Source of the DNA: an uncultured Verrucomicrobiota bacterium
GTDB taxonomy: Bacteria > Verrucomicrobiota > Verrucomicrobiia > Limisphaerales > SXQI01
Assembly: GCA_964566945.1 (NCBI GenBank)
Contig: CAZMKE010000005.1
Span: forward strand, 265,343-329,342
Length of the DNA stretch: 64,000 nucleotides
Reading direction: 5' to 3'
Part shown: positions 2,973 through 23,341 of the stretch, piece after piece
How positions within the stretch are numbered: the first letter of the stretch is position 1
Layout: every line of letters begins with the position of its first letter
Translations under genes and position numbers: made by a program
The notes under the pieces: model-generated
What the model was told of the DNA's origin: nothing
The model's input: the letters and a program-made list of their open reading frames with translations, nothing else
The model's database searches: none

Positions 2973-3167
2973 GCGGTCTCTCGCGCTGACGGCCGCTCCA
3001 AACGTGGAGCGGGTAGTGATTTGCTGACAGCTGGATTGCAGCAAAGGCGAGCCGCCAGCACGCCCCAAAAGTTGGCGATTTGTTCGTCTTTATTGCTTTT
3101 TGCCGGAGATCCGCGCTTGAGTTTGGCCCCGGTTTGTCTTCAGATAAGCCAAGACCGTTCCACCGCC

Positions 3168-5213: not shown

Positions 5214-6600
5214 TCCCAGGCGCCTTTCCCGACGTGACTGGCTGGCCCGGACCGGCAGCGGCTTCGGCTTGCTGGCTTTGACGGATCTGCTCGCTGCGGC
5301 CGAGCCTCTGCGGAACGTCGATCCTTTCGCCGTCCGACCGCCGCATTTCACGCCGAGGGCGAAGCGGGTGATCTTTCTCTACATGCCCGGCGGCCCGTCC
5401 CATTTGGACCTGTTCGATCCCAAGCCGCGATTGGTGGCCGATCAGGGAAAGCCCCTGCCCTTCGAGAAGCCGAAATTGGAACGGACAAAAACGGGCAATC
5501 TGCTCGCCTCGCCCTGGAAATTCTCGCGGCACGGCGCCAGCGGCATCGAAGTGAGCGAACTGCTCCCGCAAACGGCGGCGTGCATCGATGACATCTGTGT
5601 CATCCGTTCGATGGTGGCCGACAATATCAATCACAGCGGCGCAGCGCTCCAGATGTGCACAGGGGAGCAGGCGTTCTCGCGGCCGAGCATTGGCTCCTGG
5701 CTGACTTACGGGCTCGGCACGGAGAACCAGAACCTGCCCGGGTTCGTAGTGGTGAGCCCTGCGGCGGTCTTTCAGGGCGCGCAACTCTGGGCGTCGAGTT
5801 TTCTGCCGAGCGCCTATCAAGGCACGTTGATTCGAGATTTGAGCCGGCCGATAGCCAATTTGCAGGACCCAGGCGGAGACCTGAAAACGGAGCGGGCCAA
5901 GCTCGATGCGTTGCGCGAGCTGAACGGCCTCCACAAGAAGGAGCGGGTGAACGAGAGCGAACTGGACGCGCGTATTGCGTCGTTCGAGCTGGCGTTCCGG
6001 ATGCAACAGGAAGCGCCCGAAGCGTTCGACCTCTCCCGGGAAAGCACGGCCGTCCACCGCCTGTACGGGACGGACCATCCGGCCACTCAGCTTTTCGGCC
6101 GCCAATGCCTGCTCGCCCGGCGCCTGGCCGAGCGCGGGGTGCGGTTCATCCAGCTTTTCGACGCGCCGCACAACAACGCCTGGGATCACCACGGCGGCTT
6201 GCGGGAGGAACTGCCCAAGCGCTGCGCGGCGGTGGACCGCCCGATCGCGGCTTTGCTGCGGGATTTAAAAGCGCTCGGACTGTTGGAAGAGACGCTGGTG
6301 CTGTGGGGAGGAGAATTTGGGCGCACGCCCACCGCCGAGGGGACCAACGGCCGCGAGCATCACCCGTTCGGCTTCACCATGTGGATGGCGGGCGGCGGGA
6401 TTCGAGGCGGGTGCGTCCACGGGGCGACGGACGATTTCGGCTGGCACGCGGTGCAGGACAAGGTGCATGTGCACGACCTGCACGCGACCATTCTCCATTT
6501 GATGGGGCTGGATCATACGCGCCTGACCTACCGGTTTGGCGGGCGGGATTATCGTTTGACCGACGTTTATGGGAATGTGGTGCACGAGATTCTCGCCTGA
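5191..6600 (+). CDS. DUF1501 domain protein (sulfatase-fold, Tat signal)
   Basis: Part of ORF 4984..6600. Candidate starts are ATG 5191 or 5203 (MWIDPRRLSRRDWLARTGSGFGLLAL has a twin-arginine-like signal); either overlaps the PSD1 stop at 5211-5213. Motifs: RVIFLYMPGGPSHLDLFDPKP, RSMVADNINHSGA, WDHHG, LVLWGGEFGRTP, GREHHPFGFTMWMAGGG. Confidence 0.9.
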   Translation: MNLPMWIDPRRLSRRDWLARTGSGFGLLALTDLLAAAEPLRNVDPFAVRPPHFTPRAKRVIFLYMPGGPSHLDLFDPKPRLVADQGKPLPFEKPKLERTKTGNLLASPWKFSRHGASGIEVSELLPQTAACIDDICVIRSMVADNINHSGAALQMCTGEQAFSRPSIGSWLTYGLGTENQNLPGFVVVSPAAVFQGAQLWASSFLPSAYQGTLIRDLSRPIANLQDPGGDLKTERAKLDALRELNGLHKKERVNESELDARIASFELAFRMQQEAPEAFDLSRESTAVHRLYGTDHPATQLFGRQCLLARRLAERGVRFIQLFDAPHNNAWDHHGGLREELPKRCAAVDRPIAALLRDLKALGLLEETLVLWGGEFGRTPTAEGTNGREHHPFGFTMWMAGGGIRGGCVHGATDDFGWHAVQDKVHVHDLHATILHLMGLDHTRLTYRFGGRDYRLTDVYGNVVHEILA

Positions 6601-6786: not shown

Positions 6787-8124
6787 TTAGTCGGCCACTT
6801 CCTCCAGCATCGGATTGGCGGAGGGACGGCCCCGCCCGAACTTGATTTCCGGCAAAAGGAGCGCGCTCGCAACGACGATCAGCCCCGCGCTGACCCAGCC
6901 AAGGGTGGCCAGCGACTGGCTTTGGGCCAATTGAAAGGCGATCAGGGGCGCCACCAACGCCCGCACGCCGGTGAAGAAGACATGGACCGACATGTAATCG
7001 GCCACGCGGTTCTCGGGAGCGAATTTGGTCACCCAAAGGCTCCAGGCGATGTCTCCGCCCGCATTCGAGATTCCGTAAATAATTGCGCCAGTAATCAAGC
7101 CCCGCAGGTCGCTGCTCGTAAAAAAGGTGAGAATGCCAATGGCGAAGCCGAGGTTGAGCACCACGCGCAGCACAAAGAAATTCGCCCGGTCAAAAAGCCA
7201 GCCCCAGATCGGGCTGAGAATGATGCGCGCGACGTTCGGGACGAAGCCGGTGAGAAAAGCGATCTGGCCGACGCCCAGCGCGAGGCCGTATTTGGGATTG
7301 GCGAGCATCTCGACGCGCATCGGAATCATCATCAGGTTCGCGAAGCCCATGAGCATCCAGCAGATCAAGGTCCGCCGGAAGAGCGCGTCCTCCCGGGCGA
7401 AATGCAGGGCGTGGAACGGGTGCGTTCCCGGAATGGAATGAAGCGGGCGCGAGGGAGTGCGCTTCAGGCAAAACGTCGCCAGCGCGAACGCCGCCGCAAA
7501 GATCAGCAGCAGAATCTGGAATTTATCGATGCGGCCCGAAAACGCCTTGCCGGCCGCCTGGCTGAACCCGGCCGCCACCGCGATGCGGATCATGACCGTC
7601 CTGGAAAATAATTTGCCCCGCTCCGGTTCCGGATAGTTCTCGTGAAAAATCTGAGTGAGCAGCGGCAAAGCGGCGGAAGCGGCGGTCATTCCGAGCATGC
7701 TGCCCGCCACGAACACCGGCAAAAAAGGCAGGGCGGCCATGACCAGGAAAACGCAGGTCCCGAACGCCGCGAGCAGCGTCGCTGTTTTCGAACTGCTCCA
7801 GCGGCCGCGAGCGGCAAGCGAGACCACCGCCGGCCCAAGCATCTGGCCGAGCGCCCCGCCGGAAGCCACCAGCCCCTTGGCAATCGGACCCGCCGCAAAA
7901 TATTTCACTGCGATCAGCAGCAGGAAGGTCGAAGCGGCCGTTTCCAGCACGCCGGCCGCAACGGCGCGCCAGCGCTCGTTGCGGTAGGTTATTTTGGTGC
8001 GATGGGGGTGGGCGTCCCGCAAGGGCGCTACTGTGAAGTGAGAGTCTCCCAAGCGCAAATGCGCAAAATGAGTTCCTCGCGTGCTACTTCGCGCCGTGAT
8101 CGAATTCAACCCGCACGGTCGCAC
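6787..8124 (-). CDS. MFS transporter (start uncertain)
   Basis: The 445-aa ORF has about 12 hydrophobic segments and an MFS-like layout. Starting at ATG 8124 would overlap the upstream DUF4230 gene (stop at 8084) by 41 nt. In-frame TTG codons at 8058, 8052 and 8022 are more plausible starts. Confidence 0.7.
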   Translation of the reverse strand: MRPCGLNSITARSSTRGTHFAHLRLGDSHFTVAPLRDAHPHRTKITYRNERWRAVAAGVLETAASTFLLLIAVKYFAAGPIAKGLVASGGALGQMLGPAVVSLAARGRWSSSKTATLLAAFGTCVFLVMAALPFLPVFVAGSMLGMTAASAALPLLTQIFHENYPEPERGKLFSRTVMIRIAVAAGFSQAAGKAFSGRIDKFQILLLIFAAAFALATFCLKRTPSRPLHSIPGTHPFHALHFAREDALFRRTLICWMLMGFANLMMIPMRVEMLANPKYGLALGVGQIAFLTGFVPNVARIILSPIWGWLFDRANFFVLRVVLNLGFAIGILTFFTSSDLRGLITGAIIYGISNAGGDIAWSLWVTKFAPENRVADYMSVHVFFTGVRALVAPLIAFQLAQSQSLATLGWVSAGLIVVASALLLPEIKFGRGRPSANPMLEEVAD

Positions 8125-8803
8125 CGGGACGGAGCGGCTTGATTGAGGCTTCCAGAAGCGCGGTGATTTTTTGCCTCCCGCTCTCCTCCGCCATTTTGAT
8201 GATGCGCGGGTGGCGTGCTTCGGCGATTACCGCCGGACGCAGATCGCGACGCGCCTGTTCTCGCAGGAAATCCCCGGAGAACCGGTCCAACCGAGCCCAG
8301 CCCACGTCGGTTTCCAATTCGTAAAAAGTCGGGTCGGTTTGCACTTCCACGAGCGATTCGTCCACACGCGGCGGCGGAAGGGTGACCGAGAGTTGCTCCG
8401 CCGCTTCGTCATATTTGAAGTCGGCCGAGCTCAGATTTTTCAGCGGAATAATGATCTGGGCTTTGTTGCCCAAGGCGCGCAAGCGAACGGTGGTCGTACC
8501 GAGGTCCACCTTGCCATAGAGCATTTTCTTCTCACTGAACTTGGTCACCATCACCGCCACATCCGCCGTAAAAACCACCAGTTTGGTCTCGTCGCGCAGT
8601 TTCTCGAGGCTGGTTTGAATGACCGTGCTGACGCTGACCTGCGGCTGAATGGCTTTTGCCACGGTTTCAGCCACCTGGGCCGGCTTGTCCGCGCAGGTTT
8701 TGAAAATAAACCCCGCCAGCAGAATCAGACTGATACCGATCGCGGCAATCGCCAGAGGCCAGCGGGAGGGCGCGGTCGGACGGGCAGGTGTTTCGTCAGG
8801 CAT
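8084..8803 (-). CDS. DUF4230-like membrane-anchored protein
   Basis: 239 aa with one N-terminal TM segment (WPLAIAAIGISLILLAGFIF) followed by a soluble domain of the size and pattern I associate with DUF4230 (LRDETKLVVFTADVAVMVTKF...TVRLRALGNKAQIIIPL...LSVTLPPPRV). The family call is from memory. Confidence 0.6.
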   Translation of the reverse strand: MPDETPARPTAPSRWPLAIAAIGISLILLAGFIFKTCADKPAQVAETVAKAIQPQVSVSTVIQTSLEKLRDETKLVVFTADVAVMVTKFSEKKMLYGKVDLGTTTVRLRALGNKAQIIIPLKNLSSADFKYDEAAEQLSVTLPPPRVDESLVEVQTDPTFYELETDVGWARLDRFSGDFLREQARRDLRPAVIAEARHPRIIKMAEESGRQKITALLEASIKPLRPGATVRVEFDHGAK

Positions 8804-9276: not shown

Positions 9277-11571
9277 CTATTCCTGGGGATATAACAGGAT
9301 GCGATCGTGCACCAAAACCACCAGATCGTTCTTCCCATCCCCGGTCAGGTCGCCGATCAACGCTTCGCGCGGTTCCGGCAGTTCATTCCGGCGATTCCGA
9401 AAGGTGCGCTCCTCGAAAACCTGCCAGCGAGTGGCGGGAACCAAGCGGTGCGGCTGTTCGAACGTCACGAGATCGAGGTAACTCTTCCCGGTTTCCAGAA
9501 AGACCAGATCCTTACGGCCGTCCCCATTGAGATCGCCGGAGACCACATCGTGCAGGAACCCGTCCTTGATCGGCGTTTCGTATCCGTCCAGTTCCGTGAG
9601 TTCCCAAACGTCGCCGCGCAGTTGCAGCCAGCCGATGGCATTCACTCCCATGAGCGAGACCGCTCCCGGCTCCGCTGCGCCGTTCATGATGGGCCGGATC
9701 GTTTGAAAGTCGAGAAACGGCAGGCTGATGCTGCGCGTGATTTGCCAGACACCGCTTTCATTCCGTTCCGAAAGCGAGAGCGATTTGCGTTCTGCGTCCA
9801 GCAGGAAAATGGCTGGGATATCTTTGCCTTGCTGCTTCAGACAATCGGCGGCCGCGATGCGTGAGTTGCTTCCGGCGGCGTTGATCTGCTCCTTCACATC
9901 GAAGTTCCACTGCCCCCCTTCCGAGGCTTTGAGCACCACCGCCCGGAGAAAATTCCGCTGGGGCAGCAGCAGTTCATCTTTGCCGTCGCCATCCACATCC
10001 GCCACGCTGACCCAAGGCTGGTCCGTGTTGCCGCCCGGGGGGGCAACATCCACTTCCTTAAAATCCCCATCACGCACCTGGAGGAAAACCTTGATCTTCT
10101 CGTAGGGAATCAGCGCGATCAGGTCCGGCAAGCCGTCCTGGTCGACATCATGGATCAGCAAAGAGGTGGGGTTGGCCTTGAAGCCTTCGCTCAATTTCTG
10201 GCGGAACGGTTCGCCCTTGGCCGGGCGAATCTGCAGCTCTCTCTTTCCATCCAGATCGACAATCGAGGCCAGCACATTTTGGTCGCCGAACTTGATCTTG
10301 CCGGCGGCGATCACCAACGGACGGCCATCCATAGGGATCAGCTTCGGGAAGCCGAGGCGCCCTTTCTCATCAAGGCTGGTCACTCCCACCTGGCGCTCAT
10401 CATTACTCAGGGCAAAGATCTCCATTTTCCCGTCGCCATCCCAATCCGTCGCCACCAGGTCGGTGATCCCCGTCAAGGTCGGGAAAGTTCGCGGCGCGTC
10501 GAAAGATCCATCCTCGGTCTGCAGGGAGAGCGCCAACTGGCCGCTGTCCGGCTCCGCGACCAGGAAATCGGAGCGTCCGTCCCCGTTCAGATCGGCCCAG
10601 ACCATGCCACGCCGGCTCCGCGAGCTCTTGGCCAGCGGCATGATCTGGAATTGCCCCTGCTTCCAGGCGCCGCTCAGGTCATCCGCGGGTTTCTGGCGGA
10701 AGGTTGAGATTTGCGCCCGGCCCGATTTCTGGGCAATCGTCACAATCTCCGTCCGATGATCCCCATCCAGATCGTCCGCCCAGTAGGAACGAATCGGCGG
10801 CAGAGTGAAATGCATTTCCGGCCCGAGCTTACCGGAGCTGTTTTGGAGGCGGAACCGAAACGGGTTCGGATTGTCCCAGTTCACCAGCAGCAGATCATCC
10901 CGGCCGTCCCCCTGAATATCGAGCACCTGAATCGATTTCACAGCTCCGACATACGGAATCTTTTCGGGTTCAGCCAGGGTGCCGTCACTCTTTTGGGCAA
11001 TGAAATAAATGAAAGACTCCGCCAGCAGCAGCAGGTCGGTCCGGCCGTCGCCGTTCAGGTCGCCGTTCACCAGGGCGTACGGATCGAGCGTGCCGTCTTC
11101 GATGGGGAAGCGCTTGAGCGCGCTCCATTTGTTCTCCCCCTCGTTATACTGCACGATCAGCTCGCGCGGTTCCCCGTAGTAGGCAATGTCCGGCCGACCG
11201 TCATGATTCAGGTCCGCCAGCACCAGGGACGAAATGCGCTTTTCCGAGGCGATCGATTGAATGCGGAACCGGGCGTCGGGCGGCAGATCGTTGATATCGC
11301 GGCGCTCCCGCTCTTTGAGCCGCGCGGGATCGTTCGTTTTGCCGGTTTGATTGTAGAGAATGGTGATCTTTGAGCGGGAATTGTTCACCACCAACAGGTC
11401 GTTCAGCCCGTCCCCATCGATATCCGCGCACTTCATCTGGCTGATCATGTTTTCGACCGGGAAGATTTCCGGGCCGGAAAAGCCGAAGCGGTTCGTCGCC
11501 TCATCCGCCAGGGCATGAAGGCTCAGCAGCAGGGAGAAAACGAAGTTCCGCGCGAGAAACCGGATAGACAT
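9277..11571 (-). CDS. FG-GAP/VCBS repeat (integrin-alpha-like beta-propeller) secreted protein
   Basis: Part of ORF 9277..11715. The internal ATG at 11571 gives the signal peptide MSIRFLARNFVFSLLLSLHALADE. It has many repeats of the D-x-D/N-G-D-G-x-x-D-L type (DIDGDGLNDLLVV, DLNHDGRPDI, DLNGDGRTDLLLL, DIQGDGRDDLLLV, DLDGDHRTEIV, DLNGDGRSDFLV, DWDGDGKMEIF, DVDQDGLPDLI, DVDGDGKDELLL, DLNGDGRKDLVF, DLTGDGKNDLVV). Confidence 0.85.
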   Translation of the reverse strand: MSIRFLARNFVFSLLLSLHALADEATNRFGFSGPEIFPVENMISQMKCADIDGDGLNDLLVVNNSRSKITILYNQTGKTNDPARLKERERRDINDLPPDARFRIQSIASEKRISSLVLADLNHDGRPDIAYYGEPRELIVQYNEGENKWSALKRFPIEDGTLDPYALVNGDLNGDGRTDLLLLAESFIYFIAQKSDGTLAEPEKIPYVGAVKSIQVLDIQGDGRDDLLLVNWDNPNPFRFRLQNSSGKLGPEMHFTLPPIRSYWADDLDGDHRTEIVTIAQKSGRAQISTFRQKPADDLSGAWKQGQFQIMPLAKSSRSRRGMVWADLNGDGRSDFLVAEPDSGQLALSLQTEDGSFDAPRTFPTLTGITDLVATDWDGDGKMEIFALSNDERQVGVTSLDEKGRLGFPKLIPMDGRPLVIAAGKIKFGDQNVLASIVDLDGKRELQIRPAKGEPFRQKLSEGFKANPTSLLIHDVDQDGLPDLIALIPYEKIKVFLQVRDGDFKEVDVAPPGGNTDQPWVSVADVDGDGKDELLLPQRNFLRAVVLKASEGGQWNFDVKEQINAAGSNSRIAAADCLKQQGKDIPAIFLLDAERKSLSLSERNESGVWQITRSISLPFLDFQTIRPIMNGAAEPGAVSLMGVNAIGWLQLRGDVWELTELDGYETPIKDGFLHDVVSGDLNGDGRKDLVFLETGKSYLDLVTFEQPHRLVPATRWQVFEERTFRNRRNELPEPREALIGDLTGDGKNDLVVLVHDRILLYPQE

Positions 11572-11847
11572 CAAAGTCAAACATGCCAATGCGCGCCGGG
11601 ATTTCAATCCCTTTGCGGCACCGGGGTTTTTCCCGCGGGGAAGCGCGGGAGGACGCCGGGAGGAAGGCGGAGGGGGATTTCTCACGCAGAGAGCGCGGAG
11701 TCCGCAGAGGTGCAAGGAAGAAAAGAAAAGCGGCGGAGTTCCGTCCGCCTGCCCCGCCGTTGGCCTCCAGATGCGCCCAATCGAAATAAAGTCTATTCTT
11801 TATTACGGTGGTCGCGTTCTGCTTCTCAGAAAGCAAGGGGCTGGAGC

Positions 11848-12078
11848 GCGGTTCGGAAAATCAGGGTTCGGCAGAGCCTCACCCTCCCAAGGGTGGCAAG
11901 CCGTGCGGCGGTTCGCTGTTTCCCGCAGCGCCCCGGGGCTACGTTCGCATCATCCCTCCGGGACTTCAGTTGGCGCTGGCGCGCGGTTTGGCGGAGCGAA
12001 CTGCGAGGGAGGTCCCGGCGATTTGGAAGATTAGGAATGGACGACATGTCCGGCCGCTTGTTGACGCGCGCGGCCCTG
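11848..12078. repeat. interspersed repeat, copy A (short S element 11848..11896 + long L element about 11908..12078)
   Basis: S_A is GCGCGGTTCGGAAAATCAGGGTTCGGCAGAGCCTCACCCTCCCAAGGGTGG. L_A contains GGCTACGTTCGCATCATCCCTCCGGGA...GGCGATTTGGAAGATTAGGAATGGACGACATGTCCGGCCGCTTGTTGACGCGCGCGG. Both recur in the same orientation at 14108..14402. Confidence 0.65.
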
Positions 12079-12381
12079 TGCGCGCTTGGGCCCGTAACCG
12101 CGGTACACCCACGCGGGCGCAACGAAAGTATTCGTTTCAGCCCGCATCGAGTAACCGTCCGTTTGCTGCGGAACGGCCCGACTGAACGGCGGGCGCCCGG
12201 CATAAAATGCGCACCCCGCCAGTTTCCACCGACGCACGTTGATCGGCCGATTGGCACCGAGGCCTGCCGCAAGCGGTTCATTGGCGGCGAGTTGCAGCTG
12301 CTGGACCGACACGAGGGTGCATCGGTCCTGCTTTGGCTTAACAATTGCTCGCGATGAAGGGAATTAGATCAACCGAACGAA

Positions 12382-13371
12382 ATGAGCAACCGGTCCAGTA
12401 TGAAACCTTCGGAGTGGCTCGCATTAGGGATAGCGATTGTCCTCCTTGGCACGAGTTGCCAGCACCGTTCTGAACGAACGGAGACGAACTCTCTCCGGGC
12501 GCGGCTTTACGCCTCGTCCGAACCAATGATCGATGGCCAAAGGCGAGGAAAAACCCACGAAAGGGGGGCAGCGGATGGTTTGCTCCAGATGACGGCAGAA
12601 GCAATGCGCTTCGCAGACCAAATAAAGGCTGCGGATAGAACCGGGTTCGCGACCCAAGCTTATCTGACGGGGGTAGAAGCGATCCTTTATAATTTGTCGC
12701 AAGCACACACGCCGGGTTTCAAGCGGTGCATCCCGCGATCGACAGCGCTTTTCTACCCGCTTCCAGAAGCGCAAATGGAGGATCTCGTGACTCCCGTAGC
12801 CGAGCCTGCGCTCAGCATCCGTGAAAGATCGGCTCTGCCGGTGCGGGTGCGCGATTTCGCACAGGGGGAACTCGTGCAAACCGGTGAAGCGCTTGATCTG
12901 GCGATTGACGGACAAGGATTTTTTGAAGTGGTACTCTTCGACGGCCGGCGTGCTTACACGCGCTGCGGCTCGATGAAATGTGATCGTTTCCGAACGTTGG
13001 TCATGCAGCAAAACCTTCCTTACACGGGAGGATTCCAGCCGATACCGCTCGAAGCGACCTCAATCGCGGTTGCCCCCGACGGGAACTTCCGGTGCGATGG
13101 CCCGAGTTCGCGCACTTCATTCCGGATTCAGCTTGTTCGTTTCGAACATCCCGAGAGCTTACGAGCGATCGGGGCGAATCTATTCGTGGAGAGCTCCGAG
13201 TCAGGGACGGCTGAGATTTCGATTCCGGGTGAGAATGGCTGCGGGGAACTGCGCCAGGGATTTATCGAAGCCTCGAACGTCCGTCCGGAAGAAGAGCTGA
13301 TGGAACTGGTCGAACTGCAGAAGATCAGCCTCAGCCGGGTCCGGAAAGGCAGCCAAGCGGCGAGGCTTTGA
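12382..13371 (+). CDS. flagellar basal-body rod protein FlgG/FlgF-like, with in-frame N-terminal lipoprotein signal; orphan
   Basis: 329 aa. The N-terminus is MSNRSSMKPSEWLALGIAIVLLGTSC (hydrophobic core plus lipobox-compatible G-T-S-C). Rod signatures appear in the canonical order: AILYNLSQAHTPGFKR; DFAQGELVQTGEALDLAIDGQGFFEVVLFDGRRAYTRCGSMKCD; IQLVRFEHPESLRAIGANLFVESSESG...IPGENGCGELRQGFIEASNV. An alternative internal start at ATG 12604 (MRFADQIK...) would give a canonical-length rod protein without a signal. Confidence 0.7.
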   Translation: MSNRSSMKPSEWLALGIAIVLLGTSCQHRSERTETNSLRARLYASSEPMIDGQRRGKTHERGAADGLLQMTAEAMRFADQIKAADRTGFATQAYLTGVEAILYNLSQAHTPGFKRCIPRSTALFYPLPEAQMEDLVTPVAEPALSIRERSALPVRVRDFAQGELVQTGEALDLAIDGQGFFEVVLFDGRRAYTRCGSMKCDRFRTLVMQQNLPYTGGFQPIPLEATSIAVAPDGNFRCDGPSSRTSFRIQLVRFEHPESLRAIGANLFVESSESGTAEISIPGENGCGELRQGFIEASNVRPEEELMELVELQKISLSRVRKGSQAARL

Positions 13372-13635
13372 GGGTGGTGTAAAAGCGCTTCCCAGTAGAC
13401 GCCCCTTAGCAGAATAGTTGGGGCCGCTTACCCCGGGAAGCCAGCTGTTTCCGGCGGCGACGAACAACAGAAGAGACCTATCGATTGTTCTTCGTGGATC
13501 GAGGTCGCGATAGGACCAATACGGACGAGTGCCATCGATTTGGCGAGGGTGTCCCGGGCTTCGTGTTTTTTAGGCAGCGTGGCCCTCCCACTCCGCCCTT
13601 GCTCTGGTACGGCGGGACAGGCAGCGTGAGGTGTC

Positions 13636-14028
13636 ATGCGAATTGCATTCCTCTTCTTCGTCGTGGCGGGAATTGGGTGCTTCACCCCTGCTGAAAGGTT
13701 GCCAGGGAACATCGAAATTGAGAATGCGCTGGAGAAACGGATCACCGATGACCAAGCGCGAGCAGTTGTGCTTGGTCCATACGACGAGGAGATCGAGCGC
13801 ATCCGAAAGACAGACCAAATGGGCGCCGGATCTCTGCAGGCTTTTTCACGGGCTCGTGAGGAAAGCGCATCCAGATTGGCAGAGTTTCTGTCATTACGCC
13901 GTCCCGAGGACGCCTTATGGACATATCGCACGTTTGCGACAGCGGACCTCCGCGGCGGCACGAGTGGCCTAGCATTGATTCGCCGAGGCCGGACAGCCGC
14001 ACATATGCCGCTCTTTAAATATGCTTGA
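13636..14028 (+). CDS. small hypothetical lipoprotein
   Basis: 130 aa with a signal peptide plus lipobox (MRIAFLFFVVAGIGCFTP). It lies on the same strand as, and 264 nt downstream of, the FlgG-like gene. I recognised no family. Confidence 0.45.
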   Translation: MRIAFLFFVVAGIGCFTPAERLPGNIEIENALEKRITDDQARAVVLGPYDEEIERIRKTDQMGAGSLQAFSRAREESASRLAEFLSLRRPEDALWTYRTFATADLRGGTSGLALIRRGRTAAHMPLFKYA

Positions 14029-14107
14029 GAGCACACTGCATAGCACGACGCTGGATGCAGAATAACAGCCAGGGTGTATCGGCTAGCGCTCCCAAAGCCG
14101 CCTCAAG

Positions 14108-14402
14108 GCGCTTCGTTGTTTCCAGGGGATAACCCGGACTACGTCCGCATCACCCCTCCGGGATTTCGGTTTGGGCGGGACGGGCCGCGGAGGGCGGTCC
14201 GGCGACTTGGAAGATTAGGAATGGGCGAAATGTCCGGCCCCTTGGTGACGCGCGCTCTGTTAGCGTCTGGCGGTTTTGTGGATTTGTTCGGGTCTGGGCG
14301 GGCACTAGGGATCGGTTGCGCCCCAGGACGAATGGAAGCAATTGTCTGGAGGGCGGTTCAGAAAAATCAGGGTTCGGCAGAACCTCACCCTCCCAGGGGT
14401 GG
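14108..14402. repeat. interspersed repeat, copy B (L element about 14108..14258, S element 14352..14402)
   Basis: L_B contains GGACTACGTCCGCATCACCCCTCCGGGA...GGCGACTTGGAAGATTAGGAATGGGCGAAATGTCCGGCCCCTTGGTGACGCGCGC. S_B is GGCGGTTCAGAAAAATCAGGGTTCGGCAGAACCTCACCCTCCCAGGGGTGG. It has the same orientation as copy A, but the S/L order is swapped. Confidence 0.65.
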
Positions 14403-14448
14403 GGAAAAGCTCGGGCGGAGCCTCGCTCCACCGAACGCTGGGCCGATC

Positions 14449-15342
14449 TTAAGACATGGAGCGGGTGTTTTCCTGCTCAAACGCTTCGCGGACTTCCGCC
14501 TCGAAAGCCCAAAGTTCTTTTGGGGATTCGAGGCTGAACAGGCGCAGGACGGGCCGCGGCAGTTCGCTCACGTAAGGAGGGGCCTGGGAGGCGGTCCCAG
14601 CTCGATGAGCGAGAAGGTTGGCGGCATAGACGATCCCAACGATCATGGCGCAGTTTTTGGGAGCGCGCAGCGGGTCGTGGTGGAACGCGACGCATTGGAC
14701 GATGTTCTCTGGAAAATTCCAGCTTTTGAGCAGCTTGCCGCCGACGGTGGCGTGATGGGTGCGGAATTCGGCTTCTTCACAGCGAAACAGCGGCTCTTTG
14801 CGGGCGCGCGCATGGGCCAGCAAGGCGACATACCGGTCACCGATGAGCTGGTAAAAGACGAGTTTGCCCAGGTCGTGGAGGAGTCCGGCGGTGAACGCCA
14901 CTTCGGCATCCTCGCCAAAGCGGCGCGAGAGGATTTGCGCCGCCAGGGCGGTGCGGAGGGCATGCTCCCACAAATCCATGCTGGCCGCACCCGGCTGGGT
15001 AGCCTGGGCGAAGACGGGGGACGCCACAACTTCCAGCACCACCTGGTAAAGCTGGCGGAGGCCCAGGCGGAGCACGGCCGCCAGGAGGTTATCCATCGGC
15101 ACCACGCCGGCATAGGCGGCGCTATTCGCGACCCGCAGGACATCCGCGGTCAGCCCGGCGTCAAGCCGAATGAGATCGGCCAGGGACTCGCCGTCCGCCT
15201 CGGGATCATCGAGAAGCTGGAGCAAGCGGGGTATGATGTCGAAGGCTGGCGGCAGGTAAAGAATGGCCGAGGCCAGGTTTGGATTCCCCCCCAAACCCAG
15301 TTGCGCCGCGGATATCCCCGCGGGTTTCTCTTCGTTCTCCAT
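14449..15342 (-). CDS. HDOD domain signalling protein
   Basis: Part of ORF 14449..15561. The in-frame ATG at 15342 (MENEEKPAG...) lies 2 nt after the DUF1501 stop (15345-15347). HDOD pattern: PRLLQLLDDPEADGESLADLIRLDAGLTADVLRVANSAAYAG...LGLRQLYQVVL...AGLLHDLGKLVF...EAEFRTHHATVGGKLLKSWNFPENIVQCVAFHHDP. Confidence 0.85.
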   Translation of the reverse strand: MENEEKPAGISAAQLGLGGNPNLASAILYLPPAFDIIPRLLQLLDDPEADGESLADLIRLDAGLTADVLRVANSAAYAGVVPMDNLLAAVLRLGLRQLYQVVLEVVASPVFAQATQPGAASMDLWEHALRTALAAQILSRRFGEDAEVAFTAGLLHDLGKLVFYQLIGDRYVALLAHARARKEPLFRCEEAEFRTHHATVGGKLLKSWNFPENIVQCVAFHHDPLRAPKNCAMIVGIVYAANLLAHRAGTASQAPPYVSELPRPVLRLFSLESPKELWAFEAEVREAFEQENTRSMS

Positions 15343-15344
15343 GT

Positions 15345-16784
15345 TCAAGCCAACAGATCCGACACAACCCGGCCGCTCACATTGGTGAGCCGGGCATCGA
15401 GCCCCTGAAATTTCACAGACAACCGGGTATGCTCGATCCCGAGAAGGCGGAGCATGGTGGCATGCAGATCGTGCACGTCGATCGGATTCTCCACGGCGGA
15501 ATAGCCCAGCTCGTCGGTAGCTCCATAAACTCCCGGCTTGATCCCGCCGCCGGCCAGCCAAATGGTAAAGCCGGCGTTGTGGTGGTCCCGGCCATCCCCG
15601 CCCTGGCTCATCGGCGTGCGGCCGAACTCACCCGCCCACACGACCAGAGTATCGTCAAACATCCCGCGCTGCTTCAGGTCGGTGAGGAGAGCCATGCAGG
15701 CGCGATCGATCTCTTCCGCCTTGAGCCGAATGCCTTCCTTCACGCCGCCATGGTGATCCCAATCCTTGTGGTAAAGCTGGATGAACCGCACGCCCCGCTC
15801 GGCGAGCCGCCGGGCCAGGAGGCAGTTCGAGGCAAAAGACCCGTCCCCGGGCTTGCAGCCGTAAAGATCTAGCGTGCTCTGGGGCTCGCTCTTGATATTC
15901 ATGAGCTCGGGAACGCTGGCCTGCATCTTGAAGGCCATCTCGTATTGCGCGATGCGGGTGGCGATCTCCGGATCATCCACAATCGAATCATAGCGCCTGT
16001 TCAGGGCGTTGATCGTCTGGACGATTTCCCCCTGCTGTTCGCGGCTCACGCCGGGCGGGTTGCCCAAGTAAAGGACCGGATCCCCCTTGCCCCGAAGGTG
16101 CACGCCCTGAAAACGGCTGGGCAAAAGGCCCGAGGCCCACTGCCGCGCGGCAATCGGCTGGTTTTGACCTCCGCGCCCCAGAGAGGTGAGAACCACGAAG
16201 CCGGGCAGTTCCTCGGCCTCACTCCCCAAGCCGTAGACCACCCACGAACCCATGCTTGGCCGGCCGGCAATCTGCGCCCCGGTATTCATGAACATGTGCG
16301 CCGGATCGTGATTGATGGCTTCGGTGGTCATCGACCGCACGAGGCAGATGTCATCAATCACCGAGCCGATCTGGGGAAACAACTCGCAAATCTCCGTGCC
16401 GTTCCGGCCAAATTTCTTAAACCCGTGCTGCGGCCCAAAGCAAACCAGCTTCGCGCCCTGCAGCTGGGCGATCTGCTTGCCCCGGGTCATCGATTCCGGC
16501 ATCGGCTGGCCGTGCATTTCGGCGAGCTTGGGCTTGGGATCGAAAGTCTCGAGATGCGAAGGGCCGCCAGCCATGGTCAGCCAGATCACCCGTTTGGCCT
16601 TCGGGGGAAAATGGAAAGGATTGACCACGCCGGTCCATTTGTCGCTCTTCCGAGCCTCGGCGGCAGCCAGAAGAAGCGGGCTGAGCAGGGACGCGAGAGC
16701 AACTTTGCCCACGCCATGAGCCGAACGGCCGAGAAATACGCGGCGGGTCTGCTGCTGGGCTAAAAACTGAGTGAAATCTTTCAT
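15345..16784 (-). CDS. DUF1501 domain protein (Tat signal)
   Basis: Part of ORF 15345..16820. The likely start is ATG 16784 (MKDFTQFLAQQQTRRVFLGRSAHGVG...). Motifs: RVIWLTMAGGPSHLETFDPKP, RSMTTEAINHDPA, WDHHGG, LVVWAGEFGRTP, GRDHHNAGFTIWLAGGG. Confidence 0.9.
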   Translation of the reverse strand: MKDFTQFLAQQQTRRVFLGRSAHGVGKVALASLLSPLLLAAAEARKSDKWTGVVNPFHFPPKAKRVIWLTMAGGPSHLETFDPKPKLAEMHGQPMPESMTRGKQIAQLQGAKLVCFGPQHGFKKFGRNGTEICELFPQIGSVIDDICLVRSMTTEAINHDPAHMFMNTGAQIAGRPSMGSWVVYGLGSEAEELPGFVVLTSLGRGGQNQPIAARQWASGLLPSRFQGVHLRGKGDPVLYLGNPPGVSREQQGEIVQTINALNRRYDSIVDDPEIATRIAQYEMAFKMQASVPELMNIKSEPQSTLDLYGCKPGDGSFASNCLLARRLAERGVRFIQLYHKDWDHHGGVKEGIRLKAEEIDRACMALLTDLKQRGMFDDTLVVWAGEFGRTPMSQGGDGRDHHNAGFTIWLAGGGIKPGVYGATDELGYSAVENPIDVHDLHATMLRLLGIEHTRLSVKFQGLDARLTNVSGRVVSDLLA

Positions 16785-16797
16785 GGGGTTAGGGGAA

Positions 16798-16956
16798 AAT
16801 GACCAAAGACCAAATGCCAAATACCAAGGAAAAGGGGAATGACCAAATACCCAACGCCAAATGCCAAGGGGCGGGTCGGGATTCAGGGCCGAACAAGCCG
16901 AGTCGGGTTGGTCCTTTGGGGCTTAATTGGTTTTTGGCATTTGGCATTTGGTCATT
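16798..16956. repeat. three copies of a roughly 30-nt CCAAATGCCAAA-type element (two direct, one inverted) filling the PSD1-DUF1501 intercistronic spacer
   Basis: U1 at 16798-16829 is AATGACCAAAGACCAAATGCCAAATACCAAGG. U2 at 16838-16869 is AATGACCAAATACCCAACGCCAAATGCCAAGG (28 of 32 identical to U1). U3 at 16927-16956 is TTGGTTTTTGGCATTTGGCATTTGGTCATT. Its reverse complement, AATGACCAAATGCCAAATGCCAAAAACCAA, matches U1 at 27 of 30 positions. Confidence 0.7.
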
Positions 16957-16959
16957 TCG

Positions 16960-19900
16960 CTAGTTTCTCGTAATCGTCTCGTGCAGATTCAGAATCACCC
17001 GGGCCACGTTGGTCCAGGCGGCGAGTTCGGCCTTGTCCAGGCTGGAGGGGGGCGCCTCGAGACCCACGCCCAGGAGTTCTTCGGCGGATTTGGGTTGGGC
17101 GCGGTATTCGGCGAGTTGTTTTTCGAGGAGGCCTTGGGCCAGCTCGATCTCGTCCGGGCGGGGCGCTCTTTGCAGGGCTTGCCGCCAGGCCCAGGAGATT
17201 CGATCTGAGGCGGCGCCGTGGCATTCGCCGAGAATCCGCGCGGCAAACGCTTTGGAGGCTTCGACGAACGAGGGATCGTTCAAGAGGGCCAGGGCCTGCT
17301 GAGGGATGTTGGAGCGGTTCCGGTCCGCCGCGCATTCCTCGCGGGTGGGGGCGTCGAAAGCGAGCATGGCCGGATGAACAAAGCTCCGCTGCCACCAGGT
17401 GTACAGGCCGCGCCGGTACTGTTCCGGACCTTTGCTCGCATCGTAGCTGCGCACCGGGAAATTGAGGTTCTCCCAGTACCCATCGGGCTGGTAGGGCTTG
17501 GCGCTGGGGCCGCCGATTTTTGGAACGAGCAAGCCGGAGATGGCGAGCGCATTGTCGCGCACCAGTTCCGCCTCGATCCGCCAACGGCTTTGCGCGGCCA
17601 GCTCGCGATTGTACGGGTCGCGCGCGCGCAACTCGGGCGAGACGACGGAGGTCTGCTTGTAGGTGCGGCTGGTAACAATGAGGCGCACCATGTGCTTGAT
17701 ATCCCAGCCGCTGTCCATGAACTCGCAGGCGAGCCAATCGAGCAACCGCTGGTTCACGGGCGGCTCGCCCTGGGCTCCAAGGTCATCCAGAATTTTGGAA
17801 AGGCCGATGCCGAAAAACTGTTTCCACAAGCGGTTCATCGTGACGCGGGCGGTGAGGGGCTGATCCCGAGCCACCAGCCAATTCGCAAGATCCAGGCGGG
17901 TGAGAGCGCGATCGGCAGGGGCTTTGAACGATGTTTTTAAAAAGGCGGGGAGCGCCGGCTGGACAATATCGCCGGTCTCGATCAGGAAGTTGCCCCGGGG
18001 CAGGATGCGCACGGTCCGCGGCTGATCCGCCTTCATGGAAACGAGGCAGCGAGGCACGGAGGCCTCGAAGTCCGATCGGGCTTTCCGGGCGGCGTCCAGC
18101 TCCTGGCGGAGGCCCGCCAATTCCGGCGTGACCGATTTAAAATGGGCGAACAGCTTCTCGTTCTCGCTTTCGGAACGGCCGGGCTTGGCCAGCAAGGCGG
18201 CGATTTCCCCGGATGGCCGGGATTCAAAGGGAGCGCGCGCGACATCGTAGCTGCTGCTGGCGGACAGGCGGAAATGGCCCAAAGTATGATTGCCAGCGCC
18301 GTGGTTTTGGATGATCTGGACCCGCAATTCATCCCCCGCCTCGAGCTTGAGCGGTTCGGCCAATTCCAAAACCAGCTGTTGGGGCCGGGTCACGTCCGGC
18401 AGGATGGCCCACCCGAAGGAATTCGTATTGCCATCGATCACCGCCGCAGCCGACCAGCGCTTGTCCGGATTGGCCTCGGCGGCCAGGGCCTGCTCAATGC
18501 TCGCGCGGGCCGAGGCGAACTTGACCGGGATCTCGCTCGAACCGCGCTGGAGTGACGCGAGCACCTCGGTCACGACAAAATTGCCGTTGCCCGCCCGGCC
18601 CGAGCCTTTGGCCGGCAGGGAATCGTGAGGCAACGCCTCCAGCCGCAGGCCGGCGATCGGGTTGGGAGAGTTGGTGAAAGAAAGCTGATACGCGTCCTTT
18701 TCCGGCTTTTTGCCTTTGACGAGAATCGAATTGTCACCCTGGATTTCGAGTTTGGCGCCACCCGCGGATTCCGCCTGAGCGGGTTTGAGCTGCCTCCAAA
18801 ACCGCTCCATCTCCAGGCTTTCCATCTGGGATTTCTCCCAGCGGGCAAAAGCCTCTTTCAGCTCAGCGTGCCCCCCATCGTAATCCTTCTGGAGCCGGTC
18901 GACGGCTGCTTGCAAACGGTCCAATTCCGCCGCCTGCTTTTTGTCCGGAGTCAGCATCCCATCCTCGCGCCGGCCAATGATCGGCTCCTGGATGTCGGCG
19001 AAAAATGCGCCGAGAGAATAAAAATCGCGCTGCGTGGCGGGATCAAACTTGTGGTCGTGGCATTGCGCGCAGCCGATGGTGGCGCCGAGCCAGGCCGTGC
19101 CGATCGCCCGCACACGATCGGTAAGCATGCGAGCCTCGTAATCCTTGGGCTGCGCCCCGCCCTCCTCCGTGGTGAGCAGGAGGCGGTTGAAGGCCGATGC
19201 CACTTTTTGCTCCTGGCTGCTGTTGGGGAGGAGATCCCCGGCGATTTGCTCACGCGTGAACTGATCGAACGGCTTGTTCTCATTGAAAGCCTTGATCACG
19301 TAATCGCGATACGGCCAGATGTTGCGCGGATTGTCCGAGTGATACCCGATCGTATCCGCAAAGCGCACCGCATCGAGCCAGGGAATGGCCATTCGTTCAC
19401 CATAGTGCGGCGAGGAGAGGAGTTCATCCACCAACCGAGCATAGGCGTCCGGCGCGCCATCCTGCTCGAAAGCGGCCGCCTCCGCGGGCGTGGGGGGCAG
19501 GCCGGTCAGATCGAAGTGGAGCCGGCGGATCAGAGTCCGGCGGTCCGCTTCGGCCGATGCTTTCAGCCCGAGCCCTTTCAGGCGCTCGCCCACGAGATAA
19601 TCGACGCCATTGGCTCCGGCGGGAGTAGGCGGCTTCACGGGCGGCAGATAGGCCCAGTGCCCCTCGTAAACGGCTCCCTCCGCCACCCAGCGCTTCAAAA
19701 GATCCCGCTGCTCGCTGGTCAGGACCTTATGCGAATCGGGCGGCGGCATCAGATCGTCCTTGTCCGTCGTGAAAATGCGCTTGATCGCCTCGCTCTCGTC
19801 GGGCTTGCCCGGGAGGAACGCCTTCTTTTCGATCGCCGCCTCGCGCACATCCAGGCGGAGCTTTCCCTTGCGGTTCTTTGCGTCGGGGCCGTGGCAGGCG

Positions 19901-23189: not shown

Positions 23190-23341
23190 CGGGCCGAATC
23201 TAGAGCTTTGGCCTGAAGGTGACAACATGGGCGGCGGAAGGAAAGCGAACCGCGGAGGGGACGGACGCCGAAATTCGACGTTCCGGTCTCAATCTCTCCT
23301 TGCCCTGGCAGCGCAGGTTCGACGAAAATCAGCAACATCCC

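What the first reader, a model, noticed from the sequence alone, without database searches (positions are those of the whole stretch)
12382..14028. Orphan FlgG/FlgF-like rod protein fused to a lipoprotein signal, paired with a second small lipoprotein
**Seen in the sequence**
- ORF 12382..13371 carries the flagellar rod signatures in canonical order: LYNLSQAHTPGFKR, then GELVQTGEALDLAIDGQGFFEV..DGRRAYTRCGSMKCD, then IQLVRFEHPESLRAIGANLF...PGENGCGELRQGFIEASNV.
- It has an in-frame N-terminal extension of about 80 aa with a hydrophobic core and a lipobox-compatible LLGTSC.
- Its extreme C-terminus, where rod proteins have the conserved QRAYE helix, is degenerate (LQKISLSRV).
- It contains several extra cysteines.
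- The next same-strand ORF (13636..14028) is also lipoprotein-like (FFVVAGIGC).
- No other flagellar, T3SS or motor gene occurs anywhere in the 64 kb.
- Codon third positions look more A/T-rich than in the neighbouring genes.

**Established knowledge**
- Rod proteins are exported by the flagellar type III system and carry no cleavable Sec or lipoprotein signal.

**Inference**
- A rod-protein fold may have been recruited into a Sec/Lol-dependent envelope role unrelated to a flagellum. This is my top candidate for an undescribed two-gene module.

**Caveat**
- An internal ATG at 12604 (MRFADQIKAADRTGF...) would give a canonical-length rod protein without a signal.
Basis: partly seen in the sequence, partly recalled or inferred. 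Interest (0 to 1): 0.75.

Follow-up and report, generated by a model that had tools for sequence, protein, structure and literature searches.

The report
Lipoprotein-signal FlgG-like rod protein paralogue
This gene encodes a copy of the flagellar rod protein FlgG that has lost its flagellar export and assembly ends and gained a lipoprotein secretion signal; over 100 similarly rebuilt, apparently undescribed proteins exist in public data, so it is probably a repurposed periplasmic protein rather than a dead gene.

Summary
ORF 12382..13371 is a true FlgG homologue. It fails the FlgG equivalog model (137 bits against a 252.75 cutoff), lacks the N-terminal rod motif and has a shortened C-terminus. 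It carries an upstream signal peptide with a lipobox, has extra cysteines and low GC3, and no other flagellar gene lies in the 64 kb.

It has no orthologue above about 43% identity in 5.8 billion protein clusters. However, a profile search found at least 108 FlgG-derived proteins with the same rebuild:
- an N-terminal lipobox or membrane anchor;
- loss of the LYTAATGM and QRAYE motifs;
- a short new C-terminal helix;
- cysteine enrichment;
- GC3 below neighbouring genes;
- mostly non-flagellar neighbourhoods.

The window protein scores 38 bits better on a model of that class than on a canonical FlgG model. Simple neutral decay is unlikely: P(no stop) is 0.02-0.04 before indels, and the chance rate of such a lipobox is about 5e-4 per start.

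I read it as a divergent, peripheral member of an unnamed class of Sec-exported, membrane-tethered FlgG paralogues. Its function is unknown. The "two-gene module" is not supported: ORF2 has no homologues and no conserved counterpart next to other class members. Whether the role is independent of the flagellum is untested; one member sits inside a flagellar operon.

The parts
12382..13371 (+). ORF1: FlgG-derived protein of 329 aa with an N-terminal lipoprotein-type signal. An alternative start at 12400 (M7) gives the same signal. The stop codon is at 13369-13371.
   Evidence: The public gene call (P0001, 198 aa) starts at M132 (12775) and is probably truncated.
12382..12459 (+). Signal peptide with lipobox: MSNRSSMKPSE / WLALGIAIVLLG / TS-C26.
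   Evidence: It passes a PROSITE-style lipobox rule plus a hydrophobic-core filter (Kyte-Doolittle 3.09 over 9 residues). The false-positive rate is 4.6e-4 per start. Cleavage and lipidation are inferred, not shown.
12460..12603 (+). Polar linker (residues 27-74), rich in R, E, S, T and G.
   Evidence: pLDDT is below 50 for residues 20-55 and helical from about residue 57. The codon-usage score is -0.21, which is at non-coding level. There is no homology to anything. Linkers of variable length and sequence are typical of the class.
12604..12726 (+). Remnant of the N-terminal D0 helix (residues 75-115), ending in LYNLSQAHTPGFKR. The canonical LYTAATGM motif is absent.
   Evidence: Alignments. 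Pfam PF00460 is not hit.
12727..13281 (+). Dc and D1 core (residues 116-300), with DLAIDGQGFFEV, YTRCGS, IQLVRFEHPESL and IEASNV. It contains Cys116, 195, 201, 238 and 287.
   Evidence: PF22692 hit. pLDDT is 87-98 across residues 151-310, after a low-confidence stretch (50-60) at residues 121-150. Against the FlgG crystal fragment 6JF2 the TM-score is 0.88 and the rmsd 2.0. Cysteine enrichment is shown.
13282..13368 (+). Short replacement C-terminal helix (residues 301-329): RPEEELMELVELQKISLSRVRKGSQAARL. QRAYE is absent.
   Evidence: The tail after EASNV is 29 aa. The short lipoprotein forms of the class have 22-34 aa and canonical FlgG has 38-40 aa. The model shows a helix over residues 302-328.
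13636..14028 (+). ORF2: 130-aa orphan ORF with a lipobox (MRIAFLFFVVAGIGC). It is not shown to belong functionally to ORF1.
   Evidence: It passes the lipobox rule. It has no families and no homologues. The codon score is -0.06, though this is the best of the six frames. The single-sequence AF2 model has pLDDT 53 and is helical.
11831..12071 (+). Left copy of a direct repeat that brackets the ORF pair (blocks B then A).
14107..14402 (+). Right copy of the direct repeat (block A, about 80 bp, then block B). Identity to the left copy is 74-88%.
   Evidence: Only a 28-nt core of block B recurs elsewhere.

Best explanation
**What it is**
ORF1 is a divergent, peripheral member of an unnamed but widespread class of FlgG-derived proteins. 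These proteins are no longer flagellar type III substrates. They are exported by Sec and tethered to a membrane. In about a third of the class, including this protein, the tether is a lipoprotein signal. In the rest it is an N-terminal signal anchor.

**Shown**
- FlgG homology and fold.
- Loss of the conserved N-terminal and C-terminal D0 signatures that rod subunits use for export and polymerisation.
- A strong lipobox-type signal.
- A short new amphipathic C-terminal helix.
- Cysteine enrichment.
- The same set of changes in at least 108 other proteins.

**Inferred**
- The protein is cleaved by signal peptidase II and lipidated at Cys26.
- It sits in the periplasm on a flexible linker of roughly 30-50 residues.
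- It folds there, with disulfides possible, as a monomer or small oligomer. It exposes the FlgG D1/Dc surface, which in a real rod faces the P and L rings.

**Most likely role (weakly supported)**
It may act as a rod-surface mimic or adaptor that binds periplasmic partners of the distal rod, such as ring or ring-assembly proteins. A flagellum-independent envelope role is not excluded.

**ORF2**
ORF2 is an unrelated orphan ORF, not a conserved partner.
For: **Homology and fold:**

**The class exists**
- A profile search of 1.84 billion representatives returned, among its best 150, mostly proteins of 275-750 aa. These have an N-terminal hydrophobic signal and lack both LYTAATGM and QRAYE.
- Together with two word-index searches, 108 proteins met my rule-based classification, and 38 of those have a lipobox-like signal.

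**The window protein fits the class**
- In cross-validated HMMs it scores 197-204 bits on the class model and 158-166 bits on the canonical FlgG model, a difference of +38. Held-out canonical proteins range from -145 to +3.
- At 22 columns that discriminate the two groups, it has the canonical residue once and the class-majority residue six times.
- Its C-terminal tail is 29 aa, against 22-34 aa in the short lipoprotein forms of the class.
- It has 4 core cysteines. The class mean is 2.18 and the canonical mean 0.05, p = 2e-23.
- Its low GC3 is typical of the class: class members have GC3 below their neighbours in 5 of 5 loci tested.

**Not simple decay**
- Only 65% of the columns that are at least 95% conserved in FlgG are retained, yet there are 329 open codons.
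- In a substitution-only neutral simulation at that divergence, P(no stop) is 0.02-0.04.
- All indels relative to FlgG are in frame.

**The signal is not chance:** 4.6e-4 per start.

**Non-flagellar context:** here; for other members.
Against: - No orthologue exists. The best hits are canonical Verrucomicrobial FlgG at 41-43% identity and the class member P0311 at 36%.
- Its +38-bit preference for the class model lies below that of every held-out class member (minimum +48.8).
- It shares Verrucomicrobia-type FlgG indels, whereas most class members carry Planctomycete-type indels. Its raw distance is smallest to canonical Verrucomicrobial FlgG.
- Tree placement is unresolved: bootstrap support with the class is at most 40%. 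It may therefore be a convergent derivative rather than a true clade member.
- Codon-usage support is weak: 0.09 bits per codon in the core and -0.21 in the extension, against 0.34-0.45 in real genes.
- The public gene call omitted the extension.
- There is no expression data, no dedicated signal-peptide predictor was run, and no function has been tested for any member.
Confidence: 0.6

Rival explanations
1. It is a former member of the Sec-exported FlgG-like class that is now decaying. The gene once made a lipoprotein, has recently lost selection, and is an intact-looking pseudogene or a barely expressed gene.
For: - It is a singleton with no orthologue in 5.8 billion clusters.
- It has the weakest class-model preference of all members.
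- It is on a very long branch: 31-39% identity to FlgGs that share 38-100% with each other.
- The codon score in the signal and linker region is at non-coding level.
- The gene caller truncated it.
- It lies between diverged repeats in a region with no synteny to the closest available genome.
Against: - There is no stop or frameshift in 329 codons.
- The hydrophobic core and lipobox are intact.
- The D1 core is predicted with confidence above 90.
- Low GC3 is a general property of the class, not a sign of decay.
Confidence: 0.2
2. It is a decaying relic of an ordinary flgG left after loss of the flagellum. On this view the upstream open frame, the lipobox and the neighbouring ORF2 are chance products.
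For: - No other flagellar gene lies in the 64 kb.
- The FlgG signatures at both ends are lost.
- GC3 is relaxed.
- The nearest relatives are canonical Verrucomicrobial FlgGs found in normal flagellar operons.
Against: - P(no stop) is 0.02-0.04 even without indels, and all indels are in frame.
- The chance of such a signal among 6 starts is about 0.003, and a second such signal lies in the adjacent ORF.
- The particular changes match those of a 108-member class: loss of both D0 motifs, a 29-aa replacement helix, and 4 cysteines.
- The class HMM beats the FlgG HMM by 38 bits, whereas canonical proteins never exceed +3.3.
Confidence: 0.13
3. It is a working flagellar rod paralogue, translated from the internal ATG at 12604 and exported by the flagellar type III system in a genome that has a flagellar regulon elsewhere.
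For: - The ATG at 12604 lies within about 5 residues of the canonical FlgG start.
- F124 may align with the invariant Phe of the gate-recognition motif.
- The rest of the genome is unseen.
Against: - PF00460 is not hit and the LYTAATGM motif is absent.
- The QRAYE helix needed for D0 packing is replaced and shortened.
- The protein scores 115 bits below the FlgG equivalog cutoff.
- It has four core cysteines, where canonical FlgGs have essentially none.
- The DLL of the motif is changed to PLP.
- Rod subunits need a hydrophobic extreme N-terminus correctly spaced from the gate-recognition motif (PMC8983047).
Confidence: 0.05

Closest known systems
FlgG, the distal rod protein of the bacterial flagellum (NCBIfam TIGR02488; structures 7CBM, 8WKI, 6JF2)
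   Same: - The domain order is collinear: N-helix, Dc, D1, C-helix.
- Signature blocks are conserved: TPGFKR, DLAIDGQGFFEV, YTR.GS, EASNV.
- The predicted fold matches (TM-score 0.88 to the 6JF2 D1 fragment).
- It shares the indel states of Verrucomicrobial FlgG.
   Different: - It has an N-terminal lipoprotein signal plus linker.
- It has no LYTAATGM or PF00460 motif.
- It has no QRAYE motif, and the tail after EASNV is about 10 residues shorter.
- It has 4 core cysteines.
- It retains only 65% of the near-invariant FlgG positions.
- It scores below the equivalog cutoff.
- It has no flagellar neighbours.
Unnamed class of Sec-signal or membrane-anchored FlgG-like proteins. Examples are P0120, P0121, P0246, P0262, P0277 and P0311 (lipoprotein type) and P0143, P0146, P0164 and P0242 (signal-anchor type). 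Source databases label them only 'FlgG' or 'flagellar hook basal-body protein'.
   Same: - The architecture is the same: signal, variable linker, truncated D0, Dc/D1 core and a short new C-helix.
- Cysteine enrichment, GC3 below neighbours and mostly non-flagellar contexts are shared.
- The class HMM is preferred over the FlgG HMM.
   Different: - The window protein is at most 36% identical to any member.
- Its class preference (+38 bits) is below the members' range.
- It carries Verrucomicrobia-type rather than Planctomycete-type indels, as does the two-module lipoprotein P0311.
- It may therefore be an independent or early-diverging derivation.
Orphan flagellar gene remnants in non-motile lineages (general phenomenon; from my own knowledge, not tested here)
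   Same: It is an isolated flagellar homologue with no flagellar neighbours and with relaxed sequence constraints.
   Different: Remnants are not expected to gain a Sec/lipoprotein signal, to stay open after this much divergence, or to converge on the features of a large protein class.

Membership tests
FlgG distal rod protein (TIGR02488 equivalog) | Whole-protein score at or above the curated equivalog cutoff (252.75 bits) | tested here: not met
   137.4 bits.
FlgG distal rod protein | N-terminal rod motif (Pfam PF00460; LYTAATGM...ANNLANVNT.GFK) at the extreme N-terminus | tested here: not met
   There is no PF00460 hit at E<=1. Only the NL..A.TPGFKR part remains, and it lies 75-115 residues into the ORF.
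FlgG distal rod protein | Full C-terminal D0 helix (Pfam PF06429 with QRAYE.NSK) | tested here: not met
   Only profile positions 1-24 of 46 match, at 23.5 bits against a cutoff of 23. QRAYE is absent, and the tail is 29 aa against 38-40 aa.
FlgG distal rod protein | D1 domain (PF22692) and the FlgG fold | tested here: met
   41.2 bits. Foldseek matches 7CBM, 8WKI and 6JF2. The AF2 alignment was made of FlgGs, which biases the model.
FlgG distal rod protein | Exported by the flagellar type III system, with no Sec signal | not testable with these tools
   A rule-based lipoprotein signal is present. The state of the gate-recognition motif depends on the alignment. Export was not measured.
FlgG distal rod protein | Encoded among flagellar basal-body genes or in a flagellated genome | tested here: inconclusive
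   None are present in the 64-kb window. The rest of the genome is unavailable.
FlgE/F/G hook-basal-body subfamily (TIGR03506) | Score at or above the 70.25-bit cutoff | tested here: met
   125.6 bits.
Bacterial lipoprotein (PROSITE PS51257-type signal) | A K or R near the N-terminus, an uncharged hydrophobic core, and [LIVMFWSTAG]2-[LIVMFYSTAGCQ]-[AGS]-C with the Cys at position 15-35 | tested here: met
   The rule was implemented in Python. Cys is at position 26 (or 20 from M7) and the hydrophobic core scores Kyte-Doolittle 3.09. SignalP and LipoP were not run, and lipidation is not shown.
Sec-signal or anchored FlgG-like class (defined here) | An N-terminal hydrophobic signal or lipobox followed by a non-conserved linker | tested here: met
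Sec-signal or anchored FlgG-like class | Loss of the LYTAATGM and QRAYE motifs, with a short replacement C-helix (22-34 aa after EASNV in the short lipoprotein forms) | tested here: met
   29 aa. At the 22 discriminating columns, 1 is canonical and 6 are class-majority.
Sec-signal or anchored FlgG-like class | Cysteines in the FlgG core | tested here: met
   4, against a class mean of 2.18 and a canonical mean of 0.05.
Sec-signal or anchored FlgG-like class | Scores better on the class HMM than on the canonical FlgG HMM, within the range of members | tested here: inconclusive
   +38 bits. This is outside the canonical range (maximum +3.3) but below the class minimum (+48.8).
Sec-signal or anchored FlgG-like class | Common descent with the other members | tested here: inconclusive
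   Neighbour-joining puts it on the class side of the split, but bootstrap support is at most 40%. Indel states instead match Verrucomicrobial FlgG.

The most novel reading that the evidence does not exclude
Sec-exported, membrane-tethered FlgG mimics may be an undescribed periplasmic component that docks where the distal rod normally sits or passes. They could act as a plug or placeholder for the P/L-ring channel after the flagellum is shed, or as an assembly scaffold. Budding PVC bacteria shed their flagellum when swarmer cells settle.

The plug seen in ejected-flagellum relics of gamma-proteobacteria is unidentified. It fills the space of the distal rod and is thought not to be secreted by the flagellar T3SS (PMC6424402).

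The window gene would be a Verrucomicrobial example. The class may have arisen more than once from each phylum's own flgG.
Probability: 0.1. Interest if true: 0.85.

Novelty: new variant of a known kind. Interest (0 to 1): 0.62.

Why it matters
Flagellar axial proteins are the textbook case of subunits that must travel unfolded through their own type III channel. A large set of FlgG descendants that have switched to Sec export and membrane tethering would be a clear case of a machine part being reused outside its machine.

These proteins are currently labelled "FlgG" or "hook-basal-body protein" in databases. That label can make non-motile genomes look partly flagellated. No dedicated NCBIfam model exists among those searched. 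Four full-text searches found no paper describing them.

If the class binds ring proteins, it supplies candidates for open questions in flagellar biology, such as what plugs the rings after ejection. If it does not, the FlgG D1 domain becomes a new general periplasmic module.

Tried and rejected
- **Source contig.** The look-up for the public gene call P0001 found no record.
- **Synteny.** The DUF1501 neighbour is too paralogous to define orthologous loci. The FG-GAP neighbour found a Limisphaerales MAG at 89% aa identity, but nothing beyond that gene is syntenic and no FlgG-like ORF is there.
- **Phylogeny.** Neighbour-joining trees with bootstrap could not place the window protein, probably because of long-branch effects. 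The first bootstrap script timed out.
- **Taxonomic survey of the class.** A search of GTDB genomes with P0263 was flooded by canonical FlgE and FlgG. It yielded only two usable members by luck, L198 and L147.
- **dN/dS.** The P0311 cluster copies differ by 2 nt, which is too few. No DNA is held for P0120 or P0121.
- **ORF2.** Homologue search, Pfam, NCBIfam and single-sequence AF2 were all uninformative.
- **Regulatory and RNA signals.** Rfam found nothing in 11000-15000. The promoter and terminator scan gave nothing above shuffled background.
- **Flanking repeats.** The 29-nt block-A motif has no match in metagenome contigs. Only a 24-28-nt core of block B recurs.
- **Relics of flgF, flgA or flgH beside the ORF.** None were found by tblastn at E<1e-4.
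- **Gate-recognition motif.** I first read it as lost, but a second alignment keeps the Phe, so I do not rely on it.
Full report
**1. What is in the window**

ORF 12382..13371 (+, 329 aa) and ORF 13636..14028 (+, 130 aa) exist as described.

ORF1 is a real FlgG homologue:
- NCBIfam TIGR02488 (flgG) aligns residues 86-314 to model positions 6-236 of 259. The score is 137.4 bits, against a curated cutoff of 252.75.
- The generic FlgE/F/G model TIGR03506 is passed, with 125.6 bits against 70.25.
- Pfam finds the D1 domain PF22692.
- Pfam finds only the first half of the C-terminal motif PF06429 (profile positions 1-24 of 46, 23.5 bits).
- Pfam does not find the N-terminal rod motif PF00460.
- The protein is collinear with FlgG from about M75.
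- An AlphaFold2 model has mean pLDDT 78, with the D1 core above 90. Residues 1-7 and 20-55 are below 50. Its best matches are Salmonella FlgG in 7CBM and 8WKI and the 6JF2 fragment (TM-score 0.88). The input alignment consisted of FlgGs, so this result is not independent of the homology.

**2.

*The lipobox.* I implemented the PROSITE PS51257-type rule and added a hydrophobic-core filter. In Markov-random sequence the combined rule fires at 4.6e-4 of candidate starts. In the whole window it fires at five places. One is ORF1, where M1 and M7 share the same signal. Another is the adjacent ORF2.

*Composition.* GC3 is 0.62, against about 0.75-0.78 for neighbouring genes. A codon-usage log-odds score gives these values, in bits per codon:

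| Region | Score |
|---|---|
| FlgG-like core | 0.09 |
| N-terminal extension | -0.21 |
| ORF2 | -0.06 |
| Neighbouring genes | 0.34-0.45 |

*Other flagellar genes.* tblastn with every ORF from 32 flagellar loci hit only ORF1. Pfam scans of 30 other large ORFs show typical PVC content:
- PSCyt/DUF1553 and DUF1501 pairs;
- FG-GAP, HDOD, MFS and UvrD proteins;
- peptidases and an ABC/FtsX pair;
- a CheB-CheR-PAS-kinase fusion.

None is a flagellar, T3SS or motor family.

**3. It is a singleton, but not simply a decayed gene**

A search of 5.8 billion protein clusters returned only two kinds of hit:
- the window's own truncated gene call, P0001 (198 aa, starting at M132);
- canonical 260-aa FlgGs of Verrucomicrobia, at about 41% identity.

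The best genome hit is a normal flgG at 43% identity. It lies inside a flhF-fliA-motAB-flgF-flgG-flgA-flgH-flgI operon.

Against 115 canonical FlgGs, the window protein is 31-39% identical, while they share 38-100% with each other. It keeps only 33 of the 51 columns that are at least 95% conserved.

I simulated neutral substitution of a flgG gene until 35% of residues had changed. The frame stayed open in only 2-4% of runs, before counting any indels. All real indels relative to FlgG are in frame. So most of the divergence accumulated while the reading frame was being kept.

**4. The turning point: a class with the same rebuild**

One weak hit from the first search, P0120 (378 aa), had the same odd architecture: a lipobox, a long linker, a FlgG core and no QRAYE.

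Searching with P0120 found more such proteins: P0121, P0125, P0143, P0146 and P0164. I built a profile from these six plus the window protein and searched 1.84 billion representatives. Most of the best 150 hits were proteins of 275-750 aa with an N-terminal hydrophobic segment and neither LYTAATGM nor QRAYE.

By simple rules, 108 proteins drawn from all three searches fall in this class. Thirty-eight of them have a lipobox-like signal, for example LLFTGC, VLVGC, LAAGC and FLAGC. The rest have a signal anchor.

Properties of the class:
- In the short lipoprotein forms, a 22-34-aa amphipathic tail follows EASNV, where canonical FlgG has 38-40 aa.
- The aligned core is enriched in cysteine: mean 2.18, with 81% of members having at least one. 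Canonical FlgG has a mean of 0.05 (p = 2e-23).
- GC3 is below that of the neighbouring genes in 5 of 5 loci tested.
- Neighbourhoods are mostly non-flagellar.
- Members score 205-236 bits on TIGR02488 (the two-module P0311 reaches 252.2), so all fall below its 252.75 cutoff, and only generic flagellar NCBIfam models hit them.
- Source databases name them "FlgG" or "flagellar hook basal-body protein".
- Four full-text searches found no paper on such proteins. The phrases "FlgG-like", "FlgG homolog" and "FlgG paralog" occur in none of the 20 listed papers.

**5. Does the window protein belong to that class?**

*In favour:*
- It has every hallmark: lipobox, linker, both D0 motifs lost, a 29-aa tail and 4 core cysteines.
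- At 22 class-discriminating columns it has the canonical residue once and the class-majority residue six times.
- In two-fold cross-validation it scores 197-204 bits on the class HMM and 158-166 bits on the canonical HMM, a difference of +38. Held-out canonical FlgGs range from -145 to +3.3. Held-out class members range from +48.8 to +248.5.
- Neighbour-joining puts it on the class side of a clean split of 108 class members against 80 canonical proteins.

*Against:*
- The +38 bits lies below every class member.
- Raw distances are smallest to Verrucomicrobial FlgG.
- Bootstrap placement is unresolved.
- It shares two Verrucomicrobia-type indel states (GGFQPIP, and a 3-residue deletion before SFR). 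Most class members carry Planctomycete-type states.

Its nearest class relative is P0311, at 36% identity. P0311 is a 582-aa lipoprotein with two tandem FlgG modules, and it also carries the Verrucomicrobia-type states and extra cysteines.

I therefore call it a peripheral member or a parallel derivative. Either way, the recurrence of the same changes argues for a shared selective regime rather than for decay.

**6. How it probably works**

*Shown:* the features listed above.

*Inferred from established knowledge:* rod subunits need a hydrophobic extreme N-terminus, correctly spaced from a gate-recognition motif, to enter the flagellar export gate (PMC8983047). They polymerise through their D0 helices. 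Here the N-terminus is a Sec/SPII-type signal, and both D0 signatures are altered. I infer the following:
- The protein is exported by Sec and lipidated at Cys26.
- It sits in the periplasm on a flexible tether.
- Cysteine enrichment fits folding in an oxidising compartment.

The state of the gate-recognition motif depends on the alignment. F124 may match the invariant Phe, but DLL has become PLP. I do not rely on it.

*What it binds is unknown.* Two hints link the class to flagella:
- In a Fuerstiella MAG, a lipobox-bearing tandem FlgG duplicate lies between flgG and flgA-flgH-flgI.
- P0246 directly follows a histidine kinase and a sigma-54 activator.

The D1 surface of FlgG faces the LP ring in real motors; this statement comes from my own knowledge of the 7CBM-type structures. 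The plug that fills the distal-rod space in ejected-flagellum relics is unidentified and is thought not to use the flagellar T3SS (PMC6424402). A Sec-exported rod mimic is an attractive candidate for such a role, but this is speculation. I put it at about 10%.

**7. ORF2 and the "module"**

- ORF2 has a strong lipobox and its frame is the best of the six by codon score.
- It has no homologue, no family and no self entry in the protein database, and its model is low-confidence and helical.
- No other class member has a comparable neighbour.

A conserved two-gene module is therefore not supported. ORF2 may be a real orphan lipoprotein gene or a spurious ORF.

**8. Genomic setting**

- The ORF pair lies between two diverged direct repeats, 11831-12071 and 14107-14402, at 74-88% identity.
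- Local GC is about 0.57-0.59, against 0.61 for the window as a whole.
- The closest available genome is a Limisphaerales MAG whose FG-GAP neighbour is 89% identical. It is not syntenic here.
- This is compatible with an inserted or rearranged segment, but that is not demonstrated.

**9. Verdict**

Recruitment of the rod fold to a Sec/lipoprotein context is supported. The two-gene module is not. Independence from flagella is untested.
- The instance in this window is a divergent singleton whose current activity is unproven.
- The wider result is that a large, unnamed class of Sec-exported FlgG paralogues exists. As far as I could check it is undescribed.
- I rate it a new variant of a known kind, with interest 0.62.

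Noticed in passing
window 11831-12071 and 14107-14402: Two diverged direct repeats (74-88% identity) bracket the ORF pair. Their blocks are in permuted order: B-A on the left, A then about 80 bp then B on the right. Only a core of about 28 nt from block B (AGGGTTCGGCAGARCCTCACCCTCCC) recurs elsewhere. It occurs in 7 metagenome contigs, and in three of them (L202, L203, L204) as nearby inverted pairs, which resembles a REP-like element.
   Followed up: partly
L198 8769-10193 (Fuerstiella sp. MAG, JAPYTO010000035.1): A 474-aa ORF with a lipobox-like N-terminus (FVLCCVAGGC) carries two FlgG-derived modules. The second module is nearly identical to the canonical flgG immediately upstream (7968-8765). 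It lies between flgG and flgA-flgH-flgI. It could show how such paralogues arise, or it could be an assembly artefact.
   Followed up: partly
proteins P0238 (3219 aa), P0239 (2471 aa), P0240 (1246 aa; 90%-identity cluster of 17 sequences, one member seen on 39 contigs), P0308, P0316, P0321: These are giant proteins with 2-12 repeated matches to the FlgG D1/Dc region. Several have N-terminal signals. The D1 domain seems to be used as a repeat module far outside flagella.
   Followed up: no
window 27512-31684 (+): A 1390-aa fusion of CheB methylesterase, CheR methyltransferase, PAS domains, HisKA/HATPase and a receiver domain. These are chemotaxis-type enzymes in a window with no flagellar or motor genes.
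   Followed up: no
window 12775-13371: The public gene call for this locus (P0001, 198 aa) starts at M132. It omits the signal, the linker and the N-helix. Comparison with the class suggests the call is truncated.
   Followed up: yes
window 2748-6600, 15345-20013, 23219-27267, 50620-53970: There are four PSCyt/DUF1549-DUF1553 genes in 64 kb. Three of them are paired with DUF1501 genes. These are the highly paralogous PVC gene pairs, and they defeated synteny searches.
   Followed up: no
L118 6868-11071 (contig BAEC19-1 scaffold_5473): The lipoprotein-type class member P0246 lies directly downstream of a HAMP-HisKA kinase and a sigma-54-activating response regulator. This arrangement resembles the FlrBC/FleSR control of rod and hook genes.
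   Followed up: no
window 44603-47059 (-): An 818-aa protein whose only Pfam hit is the hydrazine synthase alpha middle domain (PF18582, 45 bits).
   Followed up: no
window 602-2341, 31920-33317, 33384-34481: Long ORFs with no Pfam hit and GC3 of only 0.58-0.65. They may be shadow frames of genes on the other strand or unannotated genes. I did not resolve this.
   Followed up: no
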